Source: Escherichia coli
Lineage (GTDB): Bacteria > Pseudomonadota > Gammaproteobacteria > Enterobacterales > Enterobacteriaceae
Reading direction: 5' to 3' (one strand)
Assembly (NCBI RefSeq): GCF_003790525.1
Contig: NZ_CP033636.1
DNA: 64,000 bases
The notes beneath the pieces are model-generated. The model searched no databases, was not told where the DNA came from, and worked only from the letters and a program-made list of their open reading frames with translations. Made by a program: the position numbers and the translations under genes. Shown here in pieces: positions 44,031-64,000 of the stretch; the stretch's first letter is position 1, and the number at the start of each line of letters is the position of its first letter.

Positions 44031-44085
44031 GGTGATGCTGCCAACTTACTGATTTAGTGTATGATGGTGTTTTTGAGGTGCTCCA

Positions 44086-44361
44086 GTGGCTTCTGTTTCT
44101 ATCAGCTGTCCCTCCTGTTCAGCTACTGACGGGGTGGTGCGTAACGGCAAAAGCACTGCCGGACATCAGCGCTATCTCTGCTCTCACTGCCGTAAAACAT
44201 GGCAACTGCAGTTCACTTACACCGCTTCTCAACCCGGTACGCACCAGAAAATCATTGATATGGCCATGAATGGCGTTGGATGCCGGGCAACCGCCCGCAT
44301 TATGGGCGTTGGCCTCAACACGATTTTCCGCCATTTAAAAAACTCAGGCCGCAGTCGGTAA
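44086..44361 (+). CDS. insA: IS1 InsA
   Basis: 91-aa [43 protein letters not shown]. Confidence 0.95.
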
Positions 44362-44783
44362 CCTCGCGCATACAGCCGGGCAGTGACGTCATCGTCTGCG
44401 CGGAAATGGACGAACAGTGGGGATACGTCGGGGCTAAATCGCGCCAGCGCTGGCTGTTTTACGCGTATGACAGGCTCCGGAAGACGGTTGTTGCGCACGT
44501 ATTCGGTGAACGCACTATGGCGACGCTGGGGCGTCTTATGAGCCTGCTGTCACCCTTTGACGTGGTGATATGGATGACGGATGGCTGGCCGCTGTATGAA
44601 TCCCGCCTGAAGGGAAAGCTGCACGTAATCAGCAAGCGATATACGCAGCGAATTGAGCGGCATAACCTGAATCTGAGGCAGCACCTGGCACGGCTGGGAC
44701 GGAAGTCGCTGTCGTTCTCAAAATCGGTGGAGCTGCATGACAAAGTCATCGGGCATTATCTGAACATAAAACACTATCAATAA
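44280..44783 (+). CDS. insB: IS1 InsB
   Basis: 167-aa frame overlapping insA, consistent with the IS1 frameshift-fusion arrangement. Confidence 0.9.
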
Positions 44784-44964
44784 GTTGGAGTCATTACCGG
44801 CAGCTGCTTTTCAACGCGTGGTGTAACAATCGCGTCCCTAACACAGCGGTGCTGGCTCTTCTACTCCAGCAGTGCTTATCTCATTTCCAGTGCGAAGAAG
44901 TGATCGCAGCCTGGCAGTAACCCTATCAAGCCCCTTCGTATAGCGGAGGGGCAGGAGATATCTC

Positions 44965-51226: not shown

Positions 51227-52307
51227 GAAAAAGAGCTAGCCTCTGATCGTGATTGCAATAGTTGTTACGCCACATCGTCGGGATACCCAGGAGCCAGTGG
51301 TACTGTTTAGGTATGATTTGGTCGATGAGGCTTAACTCCGCCAGTTCTTTATGCTCTGCGCTTTTCCACTCGATCTGTCCCACATCAGGAACAAATACAG
51401 CGGTCCTTACTTTTGCGGCCTGGCGGGAAAATTCTATAAAGTTGATGCCCCACGGCGTCCAGTATCTGTACTGCTCGTTTAGGCCGATGTTAAACACCGG
51501 CAGAGAAAGAGTTGAGTCGGCAAAAGCCGAAATCACATTTTTGCAGACTCTTGGACTATCTATTTTTTCCTGTTCGGTTTTGAGATGAGTCAGCAGTGCA
51601 CGGTCAATAATGCTGTTAAAGGTGTTTGTATAAAGGCCATTAGGGTCAGGAAGCCGATCTATGGCAGTAATGATTTTAAATTTTAACCGAGAAAGAAAGG
51701 GAGAGTCCTCAATAGTAACTATATGACTATGTGTTGTTTCTGGATGAATCTGGGGTTTGATGCGCTGTACTTGTTTAAAAGAGACACTACCTGGCAAATT
51801 AATGAATGCGCCCACCGTGCGTGTCAAATCGACGAAATAAGGCAAAAGATAACAACCAAGCATACGGGCATTCTTCTTTACAAGATCACACCGTTCGTCA
51901 TTGTTATCGAAAGAAATACGGAAACTAACGAATTTACGTTCAGGACCTTCGCTGGTGGTCAGCGATTGAATCCATTCATGGCATGAACCTTGTGGTACCG
52001 ACCAGTAGCTGGTTTCACGGTCCCCAAAGGGATCAGTCGTGATCAACTCTCCCTTTAAAAGGAAAAGCTCAGACAGGGTATTTGCCATGGAGAATAGGGA
52101 ATCGATATCGTTGCTCTGACAAAATTTTCCCAAATGATGAAACGCGTTTTTTTCTATCTTAGTTAGCCGATCTCGAACTTCCTGAGAATCTGCGTACTTT
52201 AAACCCAAAGACTGAAAGCGCCTTTTTACGAGCGAGCGACATTTGCTGACTTTTAGTGCAGAGCTTAAAATTTGCTGGCGCGTCAGGACAATTTTTTCAT
52301 CCATCAA
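51195..52307 (-). CDS. hypothetical protein
   Basis: 370-aa ORF overlapping the coupling-protein stop by 4 bp. Confidence 0.45.
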   Translation of the reverse strand: MMDEKIVLTRQQILSSALKVSKCRSLVKRRFQSLGLKYADSQEVRDRLTKIEKNAFHHLGKFCQSNDIDSLFSMANTLSELFLLKGELITTDPFGDRETSYWSVPQGSCHEWIQSLTTSEGPERKFVSFRISFDNNDERCDLVKKNARMLGCYLLPYFVDLTRTVGAFINLPGSVSFKQVQRIKPQIHPETTHSHIVTIEDSPFLSRLKFKIITAIDRLPDPNGLYTNTFNSIIDRALLTHLKTEQEKIDSPRVCKNVISAFADSTLSLPVFNIGLNEQYRYWTPWGINFIEFSRQAAKVRTAVFVPDVGQIEWKSAEHKELAELSLIDQIIPKQYHWLLGIPTMWRNNYCNHDQRLALFREWRESNGCG

Positions 52308-54388
52308 TGAAACTTCCTTAGAAATTTATTAAGATTTTTGATATCGAGATTTTGACGCAAAGTAACTTTTCCGGCCTTCTTGAAAAGCATTTCCGACAGA
52401 GTTGTGTTTGGCTTCATTTGTTTCTCAGCAACAGCAATAGGGATTTGGCCTACAACCTTCCTGCCATCTTGAAGCCTGGCAACTATGTGAAACATAGGGA
52501 CCTGACCCAAGAGATCCTTTGGAATACTCTCTTCTAAAGTTGTCTGCTTTCTTTCTGAGATTGAACCTGAGAAGTTATTATGCGGCAAAGATGTTTCTGA
52601 ACCGGTCGTATAAGTGACCATATTTGTGCTTATCGCACTCTTACCAAAGTTCTCTACAACAAGCGTCTGAGTAGGAGTATCGTTGACTCGCAAGCTTATA
52701 TAATTGTTGCAGAGCCCCGTAATTCGATTGGCAGTTTCAACACTTGCCGCAGCAATAAAGTCGGAGATGGTTTGGGTGCAAATAAACAGTGCAATTTTCG
52801 CTGCACGACCCTGCGCCAGAAGGTTAATCATAGGGTTGTTAATGGCTGAGTGTGCCTCATCAACAAAAATACTTATCCTGGAATTAGCTGACATATCACC
52901 ATCCTGAGCGTTGTAGCGACTACCGGCACAGGAGGTCAGATCTGACATTATTAATTGAGAAATAGCAGCTGCTGTATCGGGGTTTGAAAGGCCATCAAGC
53001 GAAATGTATAGCACCCCGCCAGTGCTGAACATCCCTTCGCTTGTTACAATTTCTCTTGATGATACTGAGTTCGGGTTAGGAGATAAAAGCTCATTTAAAG
53101 GTTTTTCAATGAGCATATCGAAAACAGGCATAATACCTGCGGTCATTTTAGCCATATGCTCTGGGTCGGACATTGAGTAATCAATAAGCTGGGAAACAGT
53201 ATCTAACCAGTCTATTTGTTCGGACCCCTCGTAATTCATGAAATGAGCCGTAAACCATTCAGCGAGACGCTTGAAACGTACCGGCAAGGTTTCGTTAGCG
53301 ACGTACTTAACTTTTTCGGTCCAGACATCGTAACCATAATATCTCGCGTAACATGACTCCATTACCTTGACTGTAAGATTCACAATAGACATGTGGCTTT
53401 TCATGTTCTTGTGAATCAGATAAATAGAAGGCTTTTTCTCTATGTAAGAAAGCCCGGAAATCACATTGGAAACGAGAGCCTTGGCATACTGAACGAATGG
53501 GTTAACCTCACCGGGAACTGTCACCAAGCTCAAAAGACGAGATGTTAGGTCAGAAACATTAGTATAGGTGTTGCAGACATCAATACAGACCGAAGATGCT
53601 GGCTGGCCAGGATGAAATTTATAGAAAGGAAGACCGAGGGTCTTAGCCTCTTCCATTAGAGATTCTCGCCACTCTGCATCGTTCTTTGGATCTATGACAA
53701 CAACAACATGACCAAGATGAAGCATGCTAATGCTTAGTAAACGCTGTAGCACCGTTTTCCCGGTACCCACGTTTCCGGTTATCAGAGTATGACCAAACCA
53801 ATTGTCTTCAGTTACAAATATGGGTTCCCTACGTTCCACAGCAAAAATTGCATTGCTGCCGCCCATCTTACGAGCCATTGCGTCAAAATGTCTCTTAATT
53901 GGGTTGAAGACGAATGGCAACTCGATCTCACGTTTATCACTGGAGAGGTTAGCTATTTGATATGCCCGATCCGCATGTTCCGGGCCCCACTCAAACCCAT
54001 CACAAAAATAGGACTTTCGCTCGGGTATATCCTTATTTTTATTTTGATAATCCTGAACCAGTTGACGATACTTTCGCTCATTGGAGAAAAAGTTACTTTT
54101 GTTAATTACACGCAGTGAATCAAGACTAACGAACATGAAATGTCGCTTGAATACACGCCAATGAGCCATCAAGAATGGCGCTGCTGTTTTGCAACGATAA
54201 AGGCACAGCAAAAAAAGCAATATTGAGGTGAACAGAACTATTGGGGCGATGTCCAGTCCGTCTGAAGAAAGTCCCATATAAAGCATAGAAACCGAACAAA
54301 TCAAAAGTATTGAGGCACTACGATACTCAAGAATAGGCCGATAAAAATTCTCTTGTGCATGGAGGTTAGTCCTCTTCGAATCTGACAT
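52304..54388 (-). CDS. type IV coupling protein (TraG/TraD/VirD4 family)
   Basis: 694-aa ORF; two N-terminal membrane helices; Walker A GNVGTGKT and hydrophobic strand VVVVIDPKND; adjacent to the relaxase. Confidence 0.7.
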   Translation of the reverse strand: MSDSKRTNLHAQENFYRPILEYRSASILLICSVSMLYMGLSSDGLDIAPIVLFTSILLFLLCLYRCKTAAPFLMAHWRVFKRHFMFVSLDSLRVINKSNFFSNERKYRQLVQDYQNKNKDIPERKSYFCDGFEWGPEHADRAYQIANLSSDKREIELPFVFNPIKRHFDAMARKMGGSNAIFAVERREPIFVTEDNWFGHTLITGNVGTGKTVLQRLLSISMLHLGHVVVVIDPKNDAEWRESLMEEAKTLGLPFYKFHPGQPASSVCIDVCNTYTNVSDLTSRLLSLVTVPGEVNPFVQYAKALVSNVISGLSYIEKKPSIYLIHKNMKSHMSIVNLTVKVMESCYARYYGYDVWTEKVKYVANETLPVRFKRLAEWFTAHFMNYEGSEQIDWLDTVSQLIDYSMSDPEHMAKMTAGIMPVFDMLIEKPLNELLSPNPNSVSSREIVTSEGMFSTGGVLYISLDGLSNPDTAAAISQLIMSDLTSCAGSRYNAQDGDMSANSRISIFVDEAHSAINNPMINLLAQGRAAKIALFICTQTISDFIAAASVETANRITGLCNNYISLRVNDTPTQTLVVENFGKSAISTNMVTYTTGSETSLPHNNFSGSISERKQTTLEESIPKDLLGQVPMFHIVARLQDGRKVVGQIPIAVAEKQMKPNTTLSEMLFKKAGKVTLRQNLDIKNLNKFLRKFH
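52359..52369. repeat. AAAGTWACTTT palindrome copy inside coding sequence
   Basis: exact aaagtaacttt within the 3' end of the coupling-protein gene. Confidence 0.4.
54089..54099. repeat. AAAGTWACTTT palindrome copy inside coding sequence
   Basis: exact aaagttacttt within the 5' part of the coupling-protein gene. Confidence 0.4.
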
Positions 54389-57300
54389 TATAGGTTCCCA
54401 GCCTCTTTCAGGTTATTGATAATTCGTTCAATGTCCACTTTCGCCCGGTCTGATGCGGCCAGCAAAGTAGGCATGTTAAATGCATGGCATTTTGTATTGA
54501 TCACAGCACCAGAATTAACGAGGTACTGAGGAAGCTTATTGAAAAGATCTTGAGCCTCTAACTGCGACCCAAATTTTTCCACGCAAGATTGGGTCAGATA
54601 GAGAGTATTAGGAGTACTTACCATAAATCTGTTTTTGCGCTTTCTTTTAAACGCCACCTCCATTTTGGACAGAATTTGATGCAGTACTGACGCAATTTCT
54701 ACAAATTCAAGCTCTGTAACGTCACCTTCGCTTATAAGCGAGAATTCACCATTTTGGTCTGATTCAGTAGTTGCAAAGACTTTACTGTTCAGATTGTGAC
54801 CAGAAACAGGTGATGCTGGTTTTTGTACTTCTGCTTTGTCCGATGATTTATTCCGGTTGCGCTTGGGATTTTGTTTTTCTACCGGTGCTGTTGGGGCGAA
54901 CAGTCTGGCCAGTGCTGGCGAAAGATGATGCCCCTTAGCGTCTGTGGGCGCATGCTCTCCATTTGATTCTTCAAGTACAGGAGGTAAGGCGGGCTCTTCA
55001 CTTGCCATCACACTGGTTGCGGCTGCTTCGGTCTGGGAATACACAACTTCAGCTGGTGGTGGGCAGTTACCCTCAGTATCTGGTTCTGAGTTTTCTTGTC
55101 CTACAGAAACATCCATAGAGCGTTCAATCGTACCCTGGGGATCAGCGTTCTGTTCTCGGTTAAGTTCTGGTAATTCTGACGGCTCGGGGAGAAGCTTTTC
55201 ATTATGGACCGAAGAGCTTGTTGCACAACTACCGACTTCTGGCCGAGAAACACTAAGCTGTGTGAAATCGGTATAATCAATGATCTCATGCTCTTCATCT
55301 TCTTCCTCAAAAAGATGTTGATAATGTTCATATTCCACAGCCTCAGTTTTCAGCGGACCAGTCGCGGATGCACTATCGGTTCCATGATATTCCACGTCGC
55401 CAGAATGTTCTTCGACTGCATTTACACGTGGGGGAGGCAGCTCAAGCGTTTGCTTTGGACGTGGGGCAGAGTTTTCAACAGAAGACTCATCATTAATCAC
55501 TAATGCCTGATACATAGAAGTATTGAAAAGTGACTTTAAAGTTGTTGGCCTTCTTGGCTCATGATAGGTGAGCTGGAACCCGGCGCAGTTATCGCCGAGC
55601 TGGACTAAACGCAGATCGTCAATGTCCCTTACTATCCACATTCCATCGAGAGAGCCTTCTCTGAATGTCAGTTGGAAATAGGGCTCTTCACTAAATGCTT
55701 TTTCATCTAATCCCGGCAGCAATGCCATAGTGGCATCTATGTTGAGGTAGGGGACAGCATCTACACACACTATATAGTCATTGGAAAGTGGAGCGCTTAA
55801 AAGGAGTTCATGAAGTTGGTTGACCAGGACATGGGATTCCGTGTCCTTTGCCGATTCATCTTCACTTTCTTCTATATCAGGAATGACAGGATCAGCTGCT
55901 TCCTCACCCTCAGATTTAACTATCTGCGTGTCATTATCAATTTCATTATCACTTTCGGCTTTCTTCTCAAAATCGTCGGATGAGCCTTCATTTTTCTTAG
56001 AATGTATATCAACATCAATAGAGGCAGTGGAGCGGCCTAAATCATTAACCTTAAGAACAGCCGTCTCAACAGTATCAGTAATTTTAGTTATAGCGTCCCG
56101 ACCGGGCACTGGTCTTCTGTATTCAGTAACTGTTTTTTGCTCGTCAATGTAAATAAAGTCTTTATTGGCATTAACGCTAAAAAGACCCGGCACTGAGTCA
56201 GGGATTTTATAGGAATCAAAGATTAAACCAATCCACCTTAGCTTAAGAAGGTTATAGAATTCTAGTTTCCCTATCCCATTTCTAAAGATGTTTGATATTT
56301 CGTTTTCCGAATAGATACCCGGAATGAAGTAGTGAACGACACGCTCATCATCATAGGGCTCGACGTAACCACGTTGAACTAGGGATTCTACCAATACCGT
56401 CTTACCAGCCTCTCCCTGAGGGAAGTTATATTTATGTAATTCGAAATCATTGAGAACAAAATCAAGGAATGCGTTCTCGTTAAGGTATACCTCACCATTT
56501 ACGATAATGATGTGCATAGGCTTAGCATTGTAATTGTTGATATTGATACTGGTAAAGTTGTGCTTGATGGTACTAATGGCCCTTGCTGCTGCATCATTAG
56601 AACGCAGACCCATGATAGGGTCACGTAAAACATTAAGGTCTGTACCAGTAGAATAGAAATCAGCGGTCCTCACGCATTTAGACAAAAAGTCATTCCCATC
56701 AGTATAAACGTTTAGGGCGGTGATCATTTTTGAATAAACACGTTCTTTATTTACCCGATCCAAAAATGCAAGACATACCGGGTTTAGGATTCGCTCAAGG
56801 AAAACGCTGGACCAGATATTATGTTGATTATGAATACGCTTTCGCCAGTGGATTTCGTATTCAACCACGTCATTTTCACGTGCCCAGTCAAGAAGACTTT
56901 GTGAGCTTGGCGTCCAAATGATCGGACTAGCTAAATTCAGGCTTACAATATCGAGATCGTAAACCTTTCCGGCATCATGGACTAAACCACAGATAAACGC
57001 AGCATAGAGATATACTTTTCTACGGACTACTTCTTCATCTTGATATCCGATTGGTCTCAGTTCTGAGTGATGCGCATTTTTTAAAGAGAGTATGGCCACT
57101 TCCAGGCTGTGAGAAAGTAACCCACCAATACCATTATGATGATGATTTTCGGAAGCTGGCAAAAGATGTATCCAGCGAACATATTCAACCAAGGGCTTTA
57201 ATACTAAATTAGTAAATGTATATGCATCGTCCCTGATGTCGCTATCGCTGATAGCTAACATCATTGAAATTGAGTGCAGCTTTTCCCGATACAGAGACAG

Positions 57301-57540
57301 GATTGACTGTTCATTAAATGTCTGTATGCCCGTCGGACGAGTTGGATACTCGATGAATTTCAGGACTTCTGGATTTGGATGATCAGGAACAGTGTACTTC
57401 TGATCTCCTAGAATCTGCGCAAAAGGAGAGAGGCTTGATATATCCTCAATCATTACAGAGGTTGCATCATTCTCCTGAGATGAGAATATCCCCAAAATCC
57501 GTTTAATACATAAATACAGCGCCCTGAAATTCATCATCAT
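54388..57540 (-). CDS. traI: conjugative relaxase, MOBH-type (HD-domain)
   Basis: 1050-aa ORF; histidine triad ENHHHNG and HD motif VHDAGK as in MOBH relaxases; acidic central region; gene order relaxase then coupling protein. Confidence 0.65.
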   Translation of the reverse strand: MMMNFRALYLCIKRILGIFSSQENDATSVMIEDISSLSPFAQILGDQKYTVPDHPNPEVLKFIEYPTRPTGIQTFNEQSILSLYREKLHSISMMLAISDSDIRDDAYTFTNLVLKPLVEYVRWIHLLPASENHHHNGIGGLLSHSLEVAILSLKNAHHSELRPIGYQDEEVVRRKVYLYAAFICGLVHDAGKVYDLDIVSLNLASPIIWTPSSQSLLDWARENDVVEYEIHWRKRIHNQHNIWSSVFLERILNPVCLAFLDRVNKERVYSKMITALNVYTDGNDFLSKCVRTADFYSTGTDLNVLRDPIMGLRSNDAAARAISTIKHNFTSININNYNAKPMHIIIVNGEVYLNENAFLDFVLNDFELHKYNFPQGEAGKTVLVESLVQRGYVEPYDDERVVHYFIPGIYSENEISNIFRNGIGKLEFYNLLKLRWIGLIFDSYKIPDSVPGLFSVNANKDFIYIDEQKTVTEYRRPVPGRDAITKITDTVETAVLKVNDLGRSTASIDVDIHSKKNEGSSDDFEKKAESDNEIDNDTQIVKSEGEEAADPVIPDIEESEDESAKDTESHVLVNQLHELLLSAPLSNDYIVCVDAVPYLNIDATMALLPGLDEKAFSEEPYFQLTFREGSLDGMWIVRDIDDLRLVQLGDNCAGFQLTYHEPRRPTTLKSLFNTSMYQALVINDESSVENSAPRPKQTLELPPPRVNAVEEHSGDVEYHGTDSASATGPLKTEAVEYEHYQHLFEEEDEEHEIIDYTDFTQLSVSRPEVGSCATSSSVHNEKLLPEPSELPELNREQNADPQGTIERSMDVSVGQENSEPDTEGNCPPPAEVVYSQTEAAATSVMASEEPALPPVLEESNGEHAPTDAKGHHLSPALARLFAPTAPVEKQNPKRNRNKSSDKAEVQKPASPVSGHNLNSKVFATTESDQNGEFSLISEGDVTELEFVEIASVLHQILSKMEVAFKRKRKNRFMVSTPNTLYLTQSCVEKFGSQLEAQDLFNKLPQYLVNSGAVINTKCHAFNMPTLLAASDRAKVDIERIINNLKEAGNL

Positions 57541-57543
57541 ACC

Positions 57544-58281
57544 TTATCGACGTTTGCCTGACAGTTCGGCTGCAATGTATGCCTGCACACTTTTATATTG
57601 CATTACTTTGGTGATGAACTCTGCTGGACTGTATGGCCCATCCTTACGGCGAGAAACATTCAGAGTCTTTTTCACATTCTCAACATATAAATTAATACTC
57701 TTTATAATGTTGTGAGACATAACCGGATAGTCGCTTACAGCCAGTAAACCCAATGAGTTGTACTCATACATTGTGTTCATGAGCTGGTTCATCTCGAAGA
57801 TGTACTTGTAAAACCTCATGGTGTTGTGGTTATTGAAGTTGAGTTGTACTGGTTCAAAACTGAAAGGTACAAACTGAGTTGATGACATGAATGAGTCATT
57901 CTTGTCGAACTCAATTGACTTAATATAAGCAACAAGATTTTCTTTCATCTTATTGTTTTCTTCATGCAGCTCGTTGAACCAATCCTGAATAGCCTGAACA
58001 AGGTCAGGATGTTTAACTGCATCAACCGTTTTAAAGAGAGAGGAAATAGCGATACTCACATCATCAAAACCTCTGATGACTGCTCCATTTCTGGCAGTTA
58101 AAAACCGGTTAAAATCTGGGGTGCCGGGGTTAATAATAACTTTGGCCATACCCTGGTGCTCTGGTCTACGTTGAGTAGAAGTTTGAGCGTTTACGCCTTG
58201 CTTTTTATTTGAACCTTTTACCATTACATCTTTTGGTTCAATGTTAATACGCTCATTGTCCGTGATAATTGCGTCGGTCAT
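57544..58281 (-). CDS. hypothetical protein upstream of relaxase, possible relaxosome accessory protein
   Basis: 245-aa ORF, 4 bp upstream of the relaxase gene. Confidence 0.4.
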   Translation of the reverse strand: MTDAIITDNERINIEPKDVMVKGSNKKQGVNAQTSTQRRPEHQGMAKVIINPGTPDFNRFLTARNGAVIRGFDDVSIAISSLFKTVDAVKHPDLVQAIQDWFNELHEENNKMKENLVAYIKSIEFDKNDSFMSSTQFVPFSFEPVQLNFNNHNTMRFYKYIFEMNQLMNTMYEYNSLGLLAVSDYPVMSHNIIKSINLYVENVKKTLNVSRRKDGPYSPAEFITKVMQYKSVQAYIAAELSGKRR

Positions 58282-58817
58282 TGTGCCACCTTAGTTTTTG
58301 AGTATTGACGGATTTTTCGTCCAAGTTCGATATATGCTGAATGATAGAGCTCAAGCATTTCTCTGTAAGGCTCCAGCAATGCTTCCGTTTCAGAAATCAT
58401 TTCGTATTCCCAGCTGGCATGGTTTACAAAACAGTTCTTAGAATATTTTCCACTTTTCATTGGTTGCACCCGTTTTGACATGTGACTAGGCGCTCTTGTT
58501 TTATAAGGGCTGAACTGATGCCAAGTGATCGTTACTTTTCTGGCATTACCAATTAGCTCAACTTTTGGTGCGTAAGAACCCAGATACTCCCTCTTTGGAA
58601 CTTTGCTATGTCGGGTAAGGTTAATCTCTTGGTGGTTTCGTTCCTTCCACTTGATCCAGTATTTTGTAATGAGATCTTCAGCCTCAACACGCAAACCTTC
58701 AATCTGAGCACGTAAATTTTTACGTGTTAGCTCTATAGAACTTATAAGATTCGAATTACTCATGACGCCTCCTGATGTGAAATTACTATACCGGAGGAAA
58801 TTTCCGTTTTTTTTCAC
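58278..58817 (-). CDS. hypothetical protein, first gene of the relaxase operon
   Basis: 179-aa ORF overlapping the next gene by 4 bp; faces the candidate oriT. Confidence 0.4.
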   Translation of the reverse strand: MKKNGNFLRYSNFTSGGVMSNSNLISSIELTRKNLRAQIEGLRVEAEDLITKYWIKWKERNHQEINLTRHSKVPKREYLGSYAPKVELIGNARKVTITWHQFSPYKTRAPSHMSKRVQPMKSGKYSKNCFVNHASWEYEMISETEALLEPYREMLELYHSAYIELGRKIRQYSKTKVAQ

Positions 58818-58949
58818 GAACAGAAGATTTTTGAATGCTCTTTGATGAGGGAATTGAACAGATGTAATGCACTCGCTGTTTCCCCCATTCGGGAGGGGCC
58901 TTCAGAAACAGTAACAGCGAGTTTAGCCTCACTTCCATCGCTACCCTCT

Positions 58950-58960
58950 AAAGTTACTTT
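58950..58960. repeat. AAAGTWACTTT palindrome copy
   Basis: exact aaagttacttt in the divergent intergenic region. Confidence 0.6.
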
Positions 58961-59044
58961 TGAGGGAATGACCATTGTGGATTATTGCTTTTGATAATGT
59001 GCATTGCTCTATTAAAGTTATACATATATCTAGTGCCACTTTTC

Positions 59045-59200
59045 CAAAAAAAATGACCCTATGGAACTTTGTCCATAGTGACACTTTTATAAAAAGTGAC
59101 CCTATGACGACATTACATAGGGTCACTTTTCAAACATAAGTGACCCTATGTGAGGTATTCATAGGGTCACTTTTCTTTGTTTAGTGATCCTATGTAAGCA
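59045..59200. other. candidate oriT / relaxosome binding region
   Basis: five copies of AAGTGACCCTATG in direct and inverted orientation, forming two perfect 15-bp inverted repeats with 9-10-bp spacers, between divergent transfer operons. Confidence 0.45.
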
Positions 59201-59434
59201 TGAGGTTGATGAAAAGTAAAAATGTCAGTTTATGACGGTCAGTGAAAGACGTCGTTATTCTAATCCAACGTTGGGAGGGGCTGGATTTAGGTTTTTTTTT
59301 AATCGCTTCACATTTCGTTAGCATGCGAAGAAATTTTGATAAAATTCTGGTCAGTTTGGTTAAAAAGTGTTACAAGTAAGCGGTGTGGTTGAAGGGATAG
59401 ATTTAAGGCTTATTCAAGCCTTAAGAAAATACTA

Positions 59435-59445
59435 AAAGTTACTTT
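59435..59445. repeat. AAAGTWACTTT palindrome copy
   Basis: exact aaagttacttt, about 80 bp upstream of the 59522 start. Confidence 0.6.
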
Positions 59446-59521
59446 TCACCCTACCGAACACCTAACAAAAAATCCATGTTGAAGATTTGAACAATTGTAA
59501 TGGCGCAAGGACAATCAGCAC

Positions 59522-60322
59522 ATGTCAGAATCTGATAATTTAACTCGTAGCTTACTCGGTAAACTTTTCCGCACTGAGATTTCGCTTATTCGTAGTTACC
59601 GTGCATTTTTAATGTTATTGCCTGTGCATGGATCTTCTGCATATCAAACTGGGACTCCTCTTCTCCAGCGTCGCCTATTTGGGAAAGGATTTAGTACAGC
59701 CGCTGATTTAGCTTTTGAAGTGGAAACACGTCCAGGTAGTTTTTTGGTTCCGCGTACACTCGGAAAGGAAATTACATGGGAGAGGTTTTTTTCTGCGGTC
59801 TTGGACGGTGATTCCAATGTAATTCGTGAATATGATACAAATGATATTGACTATGGTATTTACGATGCCGGTGAAAAAGTGACTTTTCTGAATGGTACAG
59901 TGGATATCTATAATCCCAAGAAGATTCATGAGTTGCGTTCTAAATGTGTTGATATACAGAATGACTACTTTATGCAGGTGTTCTTTATCTCAATGCTCGC
60001 ACCAGAGTTTGTAAGTGTTTTCTTTGGTTTAAAACCAACTACAGCTGATGCTATTAAAGACATTGGTTATTCATCGTTAAAAACAATTAACGATGTCGTT
60101 CTTTTCCCACGTACAATTGCTTTCTCACAAGGGCATATTGAAGAGAGTGTTTCACTTAAAACGAAAGTTTTTGCCTGGGCTTATGAATTGTCTGCTGACA
60201 TCCGGTTAGGAAAAGTTAGTGATGATTTGATGGAACTATTACGTTATGACACTATGTTCACCAGTCACCGTCAGGATGTGTTCAACACTTTAACAAATAA
60301 AGTTATGTTAAAGGATTATTAA
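59522..60322 (+). CDS. hypothetical protein, possible transfer regulator
   Basis: 266-aa ORF, first gene after the candidate oriT. Confidence 0.4.
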   Translation: MSESDNLTRSLLGKLFRTEISLIRSYRAFLMLLPVHGSSAYQTGTPLLQRRLFGKGFSTAADLAFEVETRPGSFLVPRTLGKEITWERFFSAVLDGDSNVIREYDTNDIDYGIYDAGEKVTFLNGTVDIYNPKKIHELRSKCVDIQNDYFMQVFFISMLAPEFVSVFFGLKPTTADAIKDIGYSSLKTINDVVLFPRTIAFSQGHIEESVSLKTKVFAWAYELSADIRLGKVSDDLMELLRYDTMFTSHRQDVFNTLTNKVMLKDY

Positions 60323-60323
60323 T

Positions 60324-60836
60324 ATGGCAAAGGTCGATCAAACAAAAGCTAATGCTCTATTGCGAGCAGCAAGGACTATGTCGCTTGGGGCAAATAAAAA
60401 TACAATACGAATTTTGTACGGTAATCATGTTGCTGAAAATATCGATTTTGAGCCTGGTGCAAAAACAAAACTCAAAAAAGGTATCCGGGGCTGGAGCAAA
60501 CGCACAGATAACCGCCGAGCTTTTTCTGCTGTTATTGATGTCGCAGTTAACTATTTTGGTTTTGATCCAATAAATCCGGAAGCGAGTTTTCGGCAAATTG
60601 ACTTCAACCGAATAATGAGTGTCCTTCATAATCTGGGATACTTTGTATGCGCACCGGAAGTTAATAAAATAATAGAAATCCTTACTTCTATGAAAGAAAT
60701 TGAAGAACTAGGTGCCTGCGAAAAATGTAAACGCCCATACATTGTGCCAGTGACAAATGATGCTTATTGTCCACGTTGCAGATTATCTTCAACTGCTTCA
60801 GCCATAGAGAGGTATTCTCAAGAAGAATTAGATTAA
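60324..60836 (+). CDS. hypothetical protein with C-terminal zinc-ribbon motif
   Basis: 170-aa ORF; CEKCKRPY...CPRCR cysteine pairs. Confidence 0.4.
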   Translation: MAKVDQTKANALLRAARTMSLGANKNTIRILYGNHVAENIDFEPGAKTKLKKGIRGWSKRTDNRRAFSAVIDVAVNYFGFDPINPEASFRQIDFNRIMSVLHNLGYFVCAPEVNKIIEILTSMKEIEELGACEKCKRPYIVPVTNDAYCPRCRLSSTASAIERYSQEELD

Positions 60837-61429
60837 ATTTAAAAAAGATATCGCGAAACTTGCCTTGTCTGAATCTAAATATTGACTTAAGTCAAATTCT
60901 GTTGTTTGCTTTACAATCAAATATTAGTTACAACTTAAATATTAACTCTTGACAAGTAAAGATATAATTTGATTTTTCTTTATACAGTCTTTCTTCGTTC
61001 CAAAAAATGTTCACCTTTTTTTCTGTTGAAAACGTAAAACTACTTAGGTTCTCTAAAACCTTCTATGCATGACGACTTCTTAATCGCTTTCAATTAATAT
61101 ATTTTATATTCTTGCCTAAGTTCGCTTCTTTGATCCTTAGCTATTCCTTCTTTGAAATATAGAAACAGCGTTACTGGTGATGATTTTTTTCAGCTCTTAA
61201 TACACCTGTTTTCAAAGCAATATTTGCTTTTAGATATTCGATAAAACCATGTTTTTGTTACACCGGATTTTTCACAATGTGCAAGATGGATGATCTTTCC
61301 ATCACCGAGACTATCTTCTTAGTCAGCACTCCTTTTCCGTCCTTTTCAACATAAAAACGACCATGCTATACGAGCTCTAACCTTTTTTTTGTATGCCATC
61401 ATAACCGCATCAGAAAAGGAGAACGGTCT

Positions 61430-62476
61430 ATGACTCGTATTGCATTAGCGCCTTCAAAGATGGTTTTGCTTATGTCTTTGGTAATTACTGGTGCCCACGC
61501 CAGCCCTGAGCAACCCCTAATAAAAGATACGCCCTTTGTATCAGGCCAGGCTTATAAGAAGGGTTTCTTCTGGTATGACGATCCTGCTAAAAAAAGCGAA
61601 GCTGAAGAAGAAAAGGTTTTGCCACCAACCGGTGCTGCTAGCTCGCCTTCAAAAGAGGAAAAGGTAGATTTAAATTCAAAATGGCTAAAAGAGAATATGC
61701 CTCGACTGTTAACGCAGGCAATGGATAACCCTACCGCAGAAAATCTATCACGTTATTACACGGCGCAAAGGTTAATGCTGGATATCAGTACGCGTTTTTC
61801 TGACAAATCAAAAGATTATTTTCTTAAAAACCCGATGATGTCTGAAAAACGCAGGCAACCAGTGGAAAAGGTGGCACTGGATGCTCACCGCACTGTTGTT
61901 GAAAAAAATCAGCAAACGGTAATGAAAGATATCTTTACTAAGTCAGGTTTATTTTTCTTTTTCCAGAGTACTTGCCAGTTTTGCCACGAAGAGAGCCAAA
62001 TACTTCAATTTATGCAGAACTATTATTCGGTAGATATTCTTCCAATCAGTATGGATGGAAGGCCATTGCATAATGGCCTTTTTCAGGATTTTAACATCCC
62101 CAATGCACAAATTATTGATCAATTTAAAATTCGAGAGGTACCTACAATTTTCCTGGTTTCAAAGGATGGGACATCAGCTCAGCGCATTAGTGAAGGCATG
62201 ATCTCCGCTGATGAATTAAAGAACACTATTATACTTGCCGCGAAGGGCATGAATCTGATCGATGACGCTTCGTTTCAGTCAACTCTAGATATTAAAAGGC
62301 AATATACCATCGGTGATGATGGCGTTATTACCGTTAATAAATCCGAAATGGAATCAGACCCATTCTTACTTCAAAAAATAATGGACCAAAAACTCGAAGG
62401 CTATGACATGCCTACGGCCGATCCGGTCAATTATCTCAATGCTGGCGGCAGTTTTGGAGGCACTTATGCGCAGTAA
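61430..62476 (+). CDS. periplasmic thioredoxin-fold protein, TraF/TrbB-like
   Basis: 348-aa ORF with RBS aaaaggag; signal-peptide-like N-terminus; CxxC motif TCQFCHEE. Confidence 0.45.
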   Translation: MTRIALAPSKMVLLMSLVITGAHASPEQPLIKDTPFVSGQAYKKGFFWYDDPAKKSEAEEEKVLPPTGAASSPSKEEKVDLNSKWLKENMPRLLTQAMDNPTAENLSRYYTAQRLMLDISTRFSDKSKDYFLKNPMMSEKRRQPVEKVALDAHRTVVEKNQQTVMKDIFTKSGLFFFFQSTCQFCHEESQILQFMQNYYSVDILPISMDGRPLHNGLFQDFNIPNAQIIDQFKIREVPTIFLVSKDGTSAQRISEGMISADELKNTIILAAKGMNLIDDASFQSTLDIKRQYTIGDDGVITVNKSEMESDPFLLQKIMDQKLEGYDMPTADPVNYLNAGGSFGGTYAQ

Positions 62477-63881: not shown

Positions 63882-64000
63882 ACCGCCCCGGGAATCCTGG
63901 AGACTAAACTTCCTGAGAAAGAGGTAAACAGGATGACTAAAAATACTCGTTTTTCCCCCGAAGTCCGTCAACGGGCAGTCCGTATGGTTCTGGAAAGTCA
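63879..64000 (+). mobile_element. IS3-family element, IS629-like, left end only
   Basis: terminus tgaaccgccccgggaatcctggagactaaac followed by an orfA start (MTKNTRFSPEVRQRAVRMVLES) that I recognise as IS629-like; truncated by the window edge. Confidence 0.65.
63932..64000 (+). CDS. IS3-family transposase OrfA, partial
   Basis: N-terminal 23 codons MTKNTRFSPEVRQRAVRMVLES with RBS aggtaaacagg. Confidence 0.65.

What the first reader, a model, noticed from the sequence alone, without database searches (positions are those of the whole stretch)
58950..59446. Candidate oriT with nested AAGTGACCCTATG repeats between divergent transfer operons
The roughly 700-bp gap between the relaxase operon (minus) and the TraF/TraH-like operon (plus) holds five copies of a 13-bp element arranged as two perfect 15-bp inverted repeats plus single copies, an A/T-rich tract, and two AAAGTWACTTT palindromes. 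This is the architecture expected of relaxosome accessory-protein sites near a nick site.
Basis: partly seen in the sequence, partly recalled or inferred. Interest (0 to 1): 0.45.

Follow-up and report, generated by a model that had tools for sequence, protein, structure and literature searches.

The report
IncHI2 plasmid transfer-origin repeat array
The repeats are real and sit in the known transfer-origin region of a common IncHI2 resistance plasmid, so the locus is ordinary; its eight-element repeat array and a plasmid-wide 13-bp palindrome may not have been described before.

Summary
The window is a standard IncHI2 resistance plasmid, 100% identical here to about 860 public plasmids. The finding lies in the 757-bp gap between mobI/traH (relaxase operon, minus strand) and trhR (plus strand). 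Papers cite this gap as the oriT locus of the IncHI1 plasmid R27.

The repeats are real and more regular than reported. Eight 15-bp elements (consensus AAAAGTGACCCTATG) alternate in orientation on a 44-bp period at 59029-59194. The array is unique in a 199-kb IncHI2 plasmid. Against IncHI1-type plasmids, 90% of element columns are invariant versus 28% of spacer columns. The same layout recurs in three more MobI lineages, each with a different element core.

The two palindromes are not oriT-specific: AAAAGTWACTTTT occurs 38 times on the plasmid (1.1 expected), in all lineages examined. Published oriTfinder hits on two IncHI2 plasmids map to about 59286-59537, right of the array.

Best reading: the array is a binding platform for an oriT accessory protein, probably MobI/TraH, and the nick lies outside it. 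Binding and nick site are inferred.

The oriT location is already known. The array architecture and the palindrome network appear in no paper I could search.

The parts
58278..58763 (-). mobI/traH homologue (161 aa). It is the first gene of the relaxosome ('H') operon, followed by a 245-aa ORF, the MobH relaxase (54388-57540) and the coupling protein (52304-54388).
   Evidence: Pfam MobI PF19456, E = 4.8e-22. Public annotation. It is 75-77% identical to IncHI1-type MobI. One 98%-identical database protein is named TraH by its source (P0052).
58949..58961 (.). Left copy of the dispersed 13-bp palindrome (TAAAGTTACTTTT), 192 bp upstream of the mobI ATG.
   Evidence: The AAAGT and CTTTT halves are conserved in the IncHI1-type plasmids. 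A palindrome lies between mobI and the array in all four lineages.
59015..59029 (.). AAGTTATACATATAT block at the left edge of the array. A TTAYACATA-like core recurs in all four MobI lineages. It is a candidate nick-region by conservation only.
   Evidence: This is inference, with no functional data.
59029..59043 (-). Element 1, degenerate (TCTAGTGCCACTTTT).
   Evidence: Invariant across IncHI2 and the IncHI1-type plasmids. It is the target of an ISKpn26 insertion in pF1053-2.
59049..59063 (+). Element 2 (AAAAATGACCCTATG).
59074..59088 (-). Element 3 (CATAGTGACACTTTT).
59092..59106 (+). Element 4, perfect (AAAAGTGACCCTATG).
   Evidence: (I5).
59116..59130 (-). Element 5, perfect (CATAGGGTCACTTTT).
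   Evidence: (I5).
59136..59150 (+). Element 6 (ATAAGTGACCCTATG).
59160..59174 (-). Element 7, perfect (CATAGGGTCACTTTT).
59180..59194 (+). Element 8, degenerate in IncHI2 (TTTAGTGATCCTATG). The matching copy is perfect in one IncHI1-type plasmid (L002).
59286..59537 (.). Segment that corresponds to the 252-bp oriT hits reported by oriTfinder on IncHI2 plasmids pGS32-1 and p1575-1. Coordinates were mapped through the relaxase and coupling-protein genes and are good to about 1 bp.
   Evidence: mapped. The 59285-59385 block is 72% invariant against IncHI1-type plasmids.
59318..59345 (+). Promoter-like site (TTAGCA, 16 nt, TAAAAT, with an extended TG). Candidate promoter of the trhR/trhY ('R') operon.
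   Evidence: Conserved in IncHI1-type plasmids. A TGATATAAT counterpart occurs in the Klebsiella and L019 lineages. This is a consensus match only.
59363..59376 (+). Isolated element-like sequence (AAAAGTGTTACAAG), invariant in the IncHI1-type and IncHI2 plasmids.
   Evidence: (I6, I10, I15).
59434..59446 (.). Right copy of the dispersed palindrome (AAAAGTTACTTTT), 82 bp upstream of the trhR ATG.
59522..60322 (+). trhR homologue (266 aa), followed by the trhY homologue (60324-60836).
   Evidence: Some public records name it trhR. No Pfam or NCBIfam match.

Best explanation
The 757-bp mobI(traH)-trhR gap is the Tra1 origin-of-transfer region of an IncHI2 plasmid. It corresponds to the R27 (IncHI1) traH-trhR region.

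The eight alternating 15-bp elements (59029-59194, 44-bp period) are most likely double-stranded binding sites. A lineage-specific oriT-recognition factor, most probably the self-associating MobI/TraH protein encoded next door, would assemble along them as a multimer. That complex would then recruit the MOBH11 relaxase TraI.

The nick itself probably lies outside the array. One candidate is the conserved block to the right (59286-59385), where oriTfinder's reference aligns. The other is the conserved TTATACATA block at the array's left edge.

The two AAAAGTWACTTTT palindromes are not relaxosome sites. They belong to a plasmid-wide family of operator-like sites, probably bound by a conserved backbone regulator, and here they sit upstream of the two divergent operons.

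Shown: the repeats, their phasing, their uniqueness, their selective conservation, their lineage-specific change, and their position next to mobI. Inferred: which protein binds them, and where the nick is.
For: - Plasmid identity and gene context.
- MobI family membership.
- The literature places oriT beside mobI/traH in R27, SXT, Rts1 and IncA/C. It describes MobI as the factor that recognises oriT, self-associates, and binds the relaxase C-terminus.
- oriTfinder hits fall inside this gap on two IncHI2 plasmids.
- The array is non-random and unique in a whole 199-kb IncHI2 plasmid.
- 108 of 120 element columns are invariant across IncHI2 and three IncHI1-type plasmids, against 13 of 46 spacer columns (Fisher p = 1e-14).
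- The same alternating 44-bp architecture occurs in three further MobI lineages, each with a different element core: AAAAGTAACACTATG (MobI 53-54% identical), AAAAGTTACCAATGA (34-40%) and AAAAAGTACTAATGA (46% over the matched part of a truncated 117-aa protein). IncHI1 and IncHI2, whose MobI proteins are 75-77% identical, share one core.
- The experimentally defined oriT gap of Rts1 also carries short elements (YATAGGCAT) in both orientations near mobI.
Against: - There is no binding or nicking data for any IncHI plasmid in the literature I could reach.
- The 252-bp oriTfinder hits exclude the array. A fragment without the array may therefore be the reference oriT.
- The MobI model (pLDDT 89) is a long coiled coil with a small beta insert. 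It matches only generic coiled-coil and prefoldin-like structures and shows no recognisable DNA-binding fold.
- A natural IncHI1B variant lacks one 44-bp unit, so not every unit is needed.
- The array lies 265-430 bp from the mobI ATG. The IncA/C oriT abuts mobI and has a different repeat layout.
- Every protein of the plasmid diverges along the same lineages, so the co-variation does not single out MobI.
Confidence: 0.55

Rival explanations
1. The array is mainly a transcriptional control region for the two divergent promoters (H operon leftwards, R operon rightwards). A repressor or activator would bind it, for example MobI regulating itself or another plasmid regulator, and it would play little direct part in DNA processing.
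For: - It lies between divergent operons, with a promoter-like site about 120 bp to its right.
- In IncA/C plasmids the oriT overlaps the mobI promoters.
- Sequence-level conservation of the elements with free spacers fits any double-stranded protein-binding site.
- oriTfinder's hit does not include the array.
Against: - The element occurs nowhere else on the plasmid.
- In R27 the TrhR/TrhY activators act on four operons (F, H, AC, Z). A TrhR/TrhY box should therefore recur, and it does not.
- Eight phased sites over 166 bp is far more than a typical operator.
- A regulatory role and a relaxosome role are not mutually exclusive.
Confidence: 0.2
2. The array works as single-stranded DNA. In the transferred strand the inverted repeats would fold into hairpins that serve the relaxase (recognition or termination) or act as a priming or promoter signal in the recipient.
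For: - Either strand folds far better than shuffled controls: -38.5 and -40.5 kcal/mol, z = -9.5 and -9.0.
- Loop and spacer sequences are free to vary while the arms are kept.
- Rfam gave only sub-threshold hairpin-type hits.
Against: - Arms are conserved as sequence and change in concert in every copy within a lineage. They do not change by independent compensatory pairs.
- Equal spacing of alternating copies lets each arm pair with either neighbour, which suits a protein lattice better than one defined hairpin.
- Degenerate outer copies (elements 1, 3, 8) are conserved although they pair poorly.
Confidence: 0.12
3. The array is a site for something other than transfer: a site-specific recombination or dimer-resolution site, a partition centromere, or replication/incompatibility iterons.
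For: - A 13-bp inverted repeat with a 9-bp spacer looks superficially like tyrosine-recombinase core sites.
- In IncA/C plasmids a recombination site once mimicked an oriT in mobilisation assays.
- In Rts1 an 11-bp parC-like array shares the gap that holds oriT.
Against: - No recombinase, partition or replication gene adjoins the array.
- RepHI2, ParA/ParB and ParM are tens of kilobases away.
- The linkage to mobI is kept in every lineage examined.
- Eight alternating copies fit no known res or centromere layout.
Confidence: 0.05

Closest known systems
oriT of the IncHI1 plasmid R27 (traH-trhR intergenic region; Lawley et al. 2002, J Bacteriol 184:2173, cited from memory and through)
   Same: - Same gene context (traH/mobI, 245-aa ORF, traI, traG on one side; trhR, trhY on the other).
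- The gap is 756-757 bp in two of the IncHI1-type plasmids compared.
- About 75% nucleotide identity overall to IncHI1-type plasmids.
- The element sequence is identical, with eight elements in three of the four IncHI1-type plasmids and six in the fourth, and both palindromes are present.
   Different: - IncHI2 differs in the spacers, in the two variable stretches (58851-58945 and 59195-59284), and in a degenerate eighth element.
- I could not read the 2002 paper. I therefore do not know which fragment was mobilised or whether the repeats were described. R27 itself was not fetched; IncHI1-type relatives were used.
mobI-adjacent oriT of IncA/C plasmids and SXT/R391 elements (MOBH12)
   Same: - oriT lies upstream of a MobI-family gene that is essential for transfer.
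- The region is AT-rich and holds several direct and inverted repeats.
- MobI is thought to recognise oriT and recruit the relaxase.
   Different: - The IncA/C oriT is about 150 bp, abuts mobI, and overlaps its promoters.
- It has 4-7-bp inverted repeats plus two overlapping 14-bp direct repeats.
- Here, eight 15-bp elements alternate on a 44-bp period, 265-430 bp from mobI.
- mobI heads the relaxase operon here, whereas it is separate in IncA/C plasmids.
- No sequence comparison with an IncA/C or SXT oriT was possible here.
Multi-site accessory-protein platforms at classical oriTs (F TraM sbmA-C, RP4 TraK about 180 bp, R388 TrwA sites); from established knowledge and the reference lists seen
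   Same: Several phased sites spread over 150-250 bp beside the nick region. They are bound cooperatively by a plasmid-specific protein that shapes the relaxosome.
   Different: - The proteins are unrelated (ribbon-helix-helix and others, against a MobI coiled coil).
- A strict alternation of orientation is not a feature of those systems.
- Binding here is untested.
KorB OB operators of IncP plasmid RK2: a 13-bp palindrome, 12 copies, at promoters and inside genes (from established knowledge). This is the analogue for the dispersed palindrome only.
   Same: A 13-bp perfect palindrome scattered over the backbone. Many copies lie 80-220 bp upstream of genes and others lie inside genes.
   Different: - The sequence is unrelated.
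- The binding protein is unknown.
- No cluster of sites lies next to the ParB gene.
- No regulatory effect has been shown.

Membership tests
MobI-dependent oriT of MOBH1 conjugative elements | Lies directly upstream of a MobI-family gene. | tested here: met
   The protein encoded at 58278-58763 matches Pfam MobI PF19456 (E = 4.8e-22). The array is 265-430 bp upstream of its start codon.
MobI-dependent oriT of MOBH1 conjugative elements | The element encodes a MOBH relaxase and a coupling protein. | tested here: met
   Public annotation and MOB-suite typing give a MobH family relaxase, TraD and MOBH/MPF_F. I did not re-scan the relaxase myself.
MobI-dependent oriT of MOBH1 conjugative elements | The fragment works in cis: it is mobilised when cloned on a non-mobilisable vector. 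| not testable with these tools
   This needs a mating assay. It is reported for the R27 counterpart (recalled from Lawley 2002; adjacency of oriT to traH is cited).
MobI-dependent oriT of MOBH1 conjugative elements | A defined nick site cut by the relaxase. | not testable with these tools
   I found no nick site for a MOBH1 relaxase in the papers I could reach. Only conservation-based candidates can be named.
MobI-dependent oriT of MOBH1 conjugative elements | Sequence homology to a database or experimentally defined oriT. | tested here: inconclusive
   Two papers report 252-bp oriTfinder hits that map to 59286-59537, but neither names the reference entry. Homology to the IncHI1-type gap is clear.
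IncP-type oriT (nick consensus YATCCTGY) | The nick-region consensus is present. | tested here: not met
   No match on either strand of 58765-59521.
IHF-assisted oriT | An IHF consensus (WATCARNNNNTTR) near the repeats. | tested here: not met
   No match in 58765-59521. The consensus is loose, so absence is weak evidence.
NCBIfam 'MobI(A/C)' protein family (the name given in public records) | The protein scores above a curated NCBIfam model cut-off. | tested here: not met
   No NCBIfam family at E <= 0.01 for the 161-aa protein. The public name must come from another rule. Pfam membership holds.
Partition centromere or replication iterons | Repeats adjoin and co-occur with par or rep genes. 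| tested here: not met
   repHI2 is at about window 4.7-5.8 kb. parA/parB and parM are in the Tra2 region of the plasmid. The element occurs only at the mobI gap.
Known structured RNA (Rfam) | A match at the family's gathering score. | tested here: not met
   Only microRNA-precursor models matched, at 24-31 bits against gathering scores of 55-83. That reflects the hairpin potential.

The most novel reading that the evidence does not exclude
Two linked features of IncH-type plasmids would be new if they hold.

1. The eight-element alternating array is a loading lattice for a MobI multimer. Its central 'specificity core' (GACCCT, AACACT, TACCAA, TACTAA) co-evolves with MobI and sets which relaxosome recognises which oriT.

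2. The invariant 13-bp palindrome AAAAGTWACTTTT is the operator of an unrecognised global regulator of the IncH backbone, comparable to KorB of IncP plasmids. It has 38 copies per IncHI2 plasmid and 15 in 50 kb of a Klebsiella IncHI1B/FIB plasmid whose MobI is only 34-40% identical. It also sits upstream of both operons that flank oriT.

The element and the palindrome share the half-site AAAAGTNAC, so the two could be evolutionarily related.
Probability: 0.3. Interest if true: 0.6.

Novelty: already known. Interest (0 to 1): 0.3.

Why it matters
IncHI2 plasmids are major carriers of mcr-1, mcr-9, ESBL and carbapenemase genes. Their transfer origin and its recognition factor are plausible targets for blocking spread, and for predicting which plasmids or islands they can mobilise.

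That oriT lies in this gap is not news.

What could matter is a testable picture of how MOBH11 relaxosomes recognise their origin. The picture has three parts: a phased lattice of eight sites, a lineage-specific core within each site, and a nick outside the lattice.

The second possible gain is a plasmid-wide palindromic motif. It might be the missing DNA target of the regulatory circuit that controls most IncHI genes. In R27, loss of HtdA de-represses 139 of 181 expressed genes, and the paper I read on that circuit reports no binding site.

Tried and rejected
- **Rfam scan of 56000-62000:** only sub-threshold microRNA hairpin hits. A structured-RNA gene is rejected.
- **Small ORFs over the array** (58941-59126 minus strand, 58975-59139 plus strand): rejected as coding. 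The spacers carry an indel and vary freely while the repeat units are kept.
- **IHF and IncP-type nick consensus searches:** nothing found.
- **Literature searches for the 13-mer and the palindrome as strings:** only unrelated hits.
- **Key papers not held:** Lawley 2002 and Ceccarelli 2008. The Ares-Arroyo 2023 oriT paper does not mention R27 and has no supplement held.
- **TrhR/TrhY as binders of the array:** rejected as unlikely. The element is absent from the rest of the plasmid although four operons depend on TrhR/TrhY.
- **TrhR/TrhY as binders of the palindrome:** doubtful. No palindrome lies in the gap upstream of the TraF-like gene (the F operon region, window 60837-61430).
- **MobI fold search for a DNA-binding domain:** only generic coiled-coil and prefoldin-like matches. 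The sequence search of solved structures was empty.
- **Scan of species-representative genomes for more MobI lineages:** only three loci. The extra lineages came from the protein database instead.
- **Extra BLAST 'places' in the same plasmid:** these proved to be the array matching itself in reverse.
- **IncA/C plasmid R55:** not in the collection, so IncA/C was compared through the paper only.

Full report
**What the window is.** The 901 bases around the finding are 100% identical to hundreds of public plasmids. Of 1376 records with a match, 860 are at least 99% identical, mostly from Escherichia, Salmonella and Enterobacter. These records are typed IncHI2A, MOBH and MPF_F.

On the minus strand lie a MobI-family gene (58278-58763), a 245-aa ORF, the MobH relaxase (54388-57540) and the coupling protein (52304-54388). 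On the plus strand lie a gene that some records call trhR (59522-60322), a 170-aa gene (trhY), a thioredoxin-family TraF-like gene and trhH. The protein next to the gap matches Pfam MobI (E = 4.8e-22). It matched no NCBIfam model, although public records name it 'MobI(A/C)'.

**Checking the observation.** The 13-mer AAGTGACCCTATG has four perfect copies, one copy with one mismatch and two copies with two mismatches inside 59051-59194. The whole window holds 10 matches with up to two mismatches against 1.46 expected, and none of 100 shuffles reached 10. An eighth, more degenerate copy lies at 59029-59043.

The copies alternate strictly in orientation. Centre-to-centre distances are 18-20 and 24-25 bp, so the unit is a 44-bp pair. 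One 15-nt inverted repeat is perfect (I5). The second is perfect over 13 nt only (sequence). Higher-order 37-38-nt inverted repeats make the array one large imperfect palindrome. The two AAAGTTACTTTT copies, the A/T runs and the 757-bp gap are as described.

**The array is selected, unique and old.** I aligned the gap with four IncHI1-type plasmids. Across IncHI2 and three of them, 108 of 120 element columns are invariant against 13 of 46 spacer columns (Fisher p = 1e-14). The fourth, p53EVA, lacks exactly one 44-bp unit.

In a complete 199-kb IncHI2 plasmid the element occurs only here. Other matches, all with two mismatches, are scattered singly. The extra BLAST 'places' are the array matching itself in reverse.

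More distant MobI homologues, found through the protein database and public plasmids, show the same layout with a changed element core:
- AAAAGTAACACTATG in a lineage whose MobI is 53-54% identical.
- AAAAGTTACCAATGA in Klebsiella IncHI1B/FIB plasmids (MobI 34-40% identical).
- AAAAAGTACTAATGA in metagenomic contigs (46% identical over the matched part of a truncated 117-aa protein).

IncHI1 and IncHI2, whose MobI proteins are 75-77% identical, share one element.

All copies in a lineage change together. That is the pattern expected for sites read by a co-evolving protein. It cannot single out MobI, because every plasmid protein diverges along the same lineages.

**Is it oriT?** The literature I could read states that mobI/traH lies directly next to oriT in R27, SXT and Rts1. 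It also states that TraH of R27 is the MobI-like factor required by MOBH11 relaxases. In IncA/C plasmids, oriT is a roughly 150-bp AT-rich, repeat-rich region just upstream of mobI. From memory, Lawley et al. 2002 mobilised the R27 traH-trhR intergenic fragment. That paper is not held, so I cannot give its coordinates.

Two papers ran oriTfinder on IncHI2 plasmids. Both report a 252-bp oriT. Using the relaxase and coupling-protein coordinates, and the BLAST placement of p1575-1 (H46), both hits map to window positions of about 59286-59537.

That segment lies in the same gap but to the right of the array. It holds a T9 run, a conserved block with a promoter-like site (59318-59345), an isolated element-like AAAAGTGTTACAAG, the right palindrome and the first 16 bases of trhR. 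My own BLAST of IncHI2 against an IncHI1-type plasmid gives one continuous alignment from 59015 to 60100. The 252-bp limit therefore probably reflects the reference entry rather than a break in similarity.

The locus-level claim is thus supported. Whether the array is needed in cis, and where the nick lies, remain open. Neither an IncP-type nick consensus nor an IHF consensus is present. By conservation, the only non-repeat, non-promoter block shared by all four lineages is a TTAYACATA-like core at the array's left edge (59015-59029). I offer it and the 59286-59385 block as nick candidates with low confidence.

**The palindromes are not oriT features.** AAAAGTNACTTTT with up to one mismatch occurs 18 times in the window (0.5 expected) and 38 times in the 199-kb plasmid (1.1 expected). 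It is nearly absent from the resistance region.

In the window, 11 of 18 sites are intergenic, and 10 of those 11 lie 80-220 bp upstream of a start codon. The two copies in the finding lie 192 bp upstream of mobI and 82 bp upstream of trhR. The flanks show no extended motif.

The same palindrome is present in every MobI lineage examined. It occurs 15 times in 50 kb of a Klebsiella IncHI1B/FIB plasmid (0.18 expected), although TrhR and TrhY there are only 28% and 35% identical.

This looks like the operator set of a conserved backbone regulator. The HtdA-TrhR/TrhY circuit affects most R27 genes, and the paper I read on it reports no binding site. No palindrome lies in the gap upstream of the TraF-like gene, the F operon region, and the F operon depends on TrhR/TrhY. 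The binder therefore stays unidentified. No paper in the held library contains either motif in this context.

**Mechanism.** The best-supported reading is that the array is a phased, double-stranded protein-binding lattice belonging to the oriT region. It would most likely be read by MobI/TraH, which self-associates and binds the relaxase in the IncC system. The nick would lie outside the lattice.

Several facts weigh against certainty:
- The MobI model is confident (pLDDT 89) but is a long coiled coil with a small beta insert. It matches only generic coiled-coil or prefoldin-like folds, so it gives no independent sign of DNA binding.
- The oriTfinder hit excludes the array.
- The IncA/C oriT is built differently.

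Three rivals remain. The array could be an operator array for the divergent promoters; this is not exclusive of the main reading. It could act as single-strand hairpins, since both strands fold with z of about -9, but the arms are kept as sequence rather than by compensation. It could be a recombination, partition or iteron site, but no such genes adjoin it.

Rts1, whose oriT was mapped experimentally to the gap upstream of its mobI, also carries short YATAGGCAT elements in both orientations near mobI. This gives loose support to repeats upstream of mobI being a general feature of these origins.

**Verdict.** The oriT location is already known for IncH plasmids. The array architecture, its lineage-specific cores and the plasmid-wide palindrome appear in no paper I could search, and they are directly testable.

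Noticed in passing
window 885, 950, 7653, 9877, 14697, 18866, 23078, 28127, 41504, 41630, 47456, 52358, 54088, 55526, 58949, 59434, 59875, 62494: The 13-bp palindrome AAAAGTNACTTTT (up to 1 mismatch) occurs 18 times in the window (0.5 expected) and 38 times in a 199-kb IncHI2 plasmid (1.1 expected). It also occurs 15 times in 50 kb of a distantly related Klebsiella IncHI1B/FIB plasmid. Most intergenic copies lie 80-220 bp upstream of genes. The binder is unknown and no paper in the held library mentions it.
   Followed up: partly
window 44031-44798: A 768-bp segment is absent from the otherwise 99.99%-identical plasmid pHS13-1-IncHI2. The flanking alignments overlap by 9 bp, as expected for an IS1-type insertion with a 9-bp target duplication.
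   Followed up: no
window 63882-64000: The last roughly 120 bases no longer align with pHS13-1-IncHI2. This may be the edge of another insertion or rearrangement.
   Followed up: no
L003 (p53EVA, IncHI1B), alignment A1 columns 351-394: A natural variant lacks exactly one 44-bp unit (two elements) of the array. Unit number therefore varies, probably through recombination between repeats.
   Followed up: partly
L006 (pF1053-2) 300-1510: An ISKpn26 (IS5-family) copy sits in the CTAG of element 1, with a CTAG duplication. It separates mobI and the TTATACATATAT block from the rest of the array. The plasmid is typed as mobilizable only.
   Followed up: partly
window 60324-60836 (trhY homologue): The C-terminus carries a CxxC...CxxC motif that is conserved in the Klebsiella-lineage homologue at 35% identity. 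This resembles the zinc site of FlhC-type activators, and Rts1 encodes an annotated FlhC-family regulator near its transfer genes. TrhR/TrhY may be distant counterparts of AcaCD/SetCD.
   Followed up: no
window 58278-58763 (MobI): The AlphaFold model (pLDDT 89) is a long antiparallel coiled coil (residues 4-48 and 117-160) with a small three-stranded insert (64-99). It is prefoldin-like and has no recognisable DNA-binding domain.
   Followed up: partly
L023 (Rts1) 23079-23250: An array of 11-bp-period CATTCAA-type repeats lies next to the ParM/StbA gene, in the same gap that holds the Rts1 oriT. It looks like a parC-type centromere.
   Followed up: no
window 13500-48000: A long run of small, mostly plus-strand hypothetical genes points towards the oriT gap. 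It includes orphan methyltransferases, HNH proteins, Hok and a PAPS-reductase-family protein, which resembles a leading region. If so, the transferred strand would be the minus strand, with the mobI side entering first (inference only).
   Followed up: no
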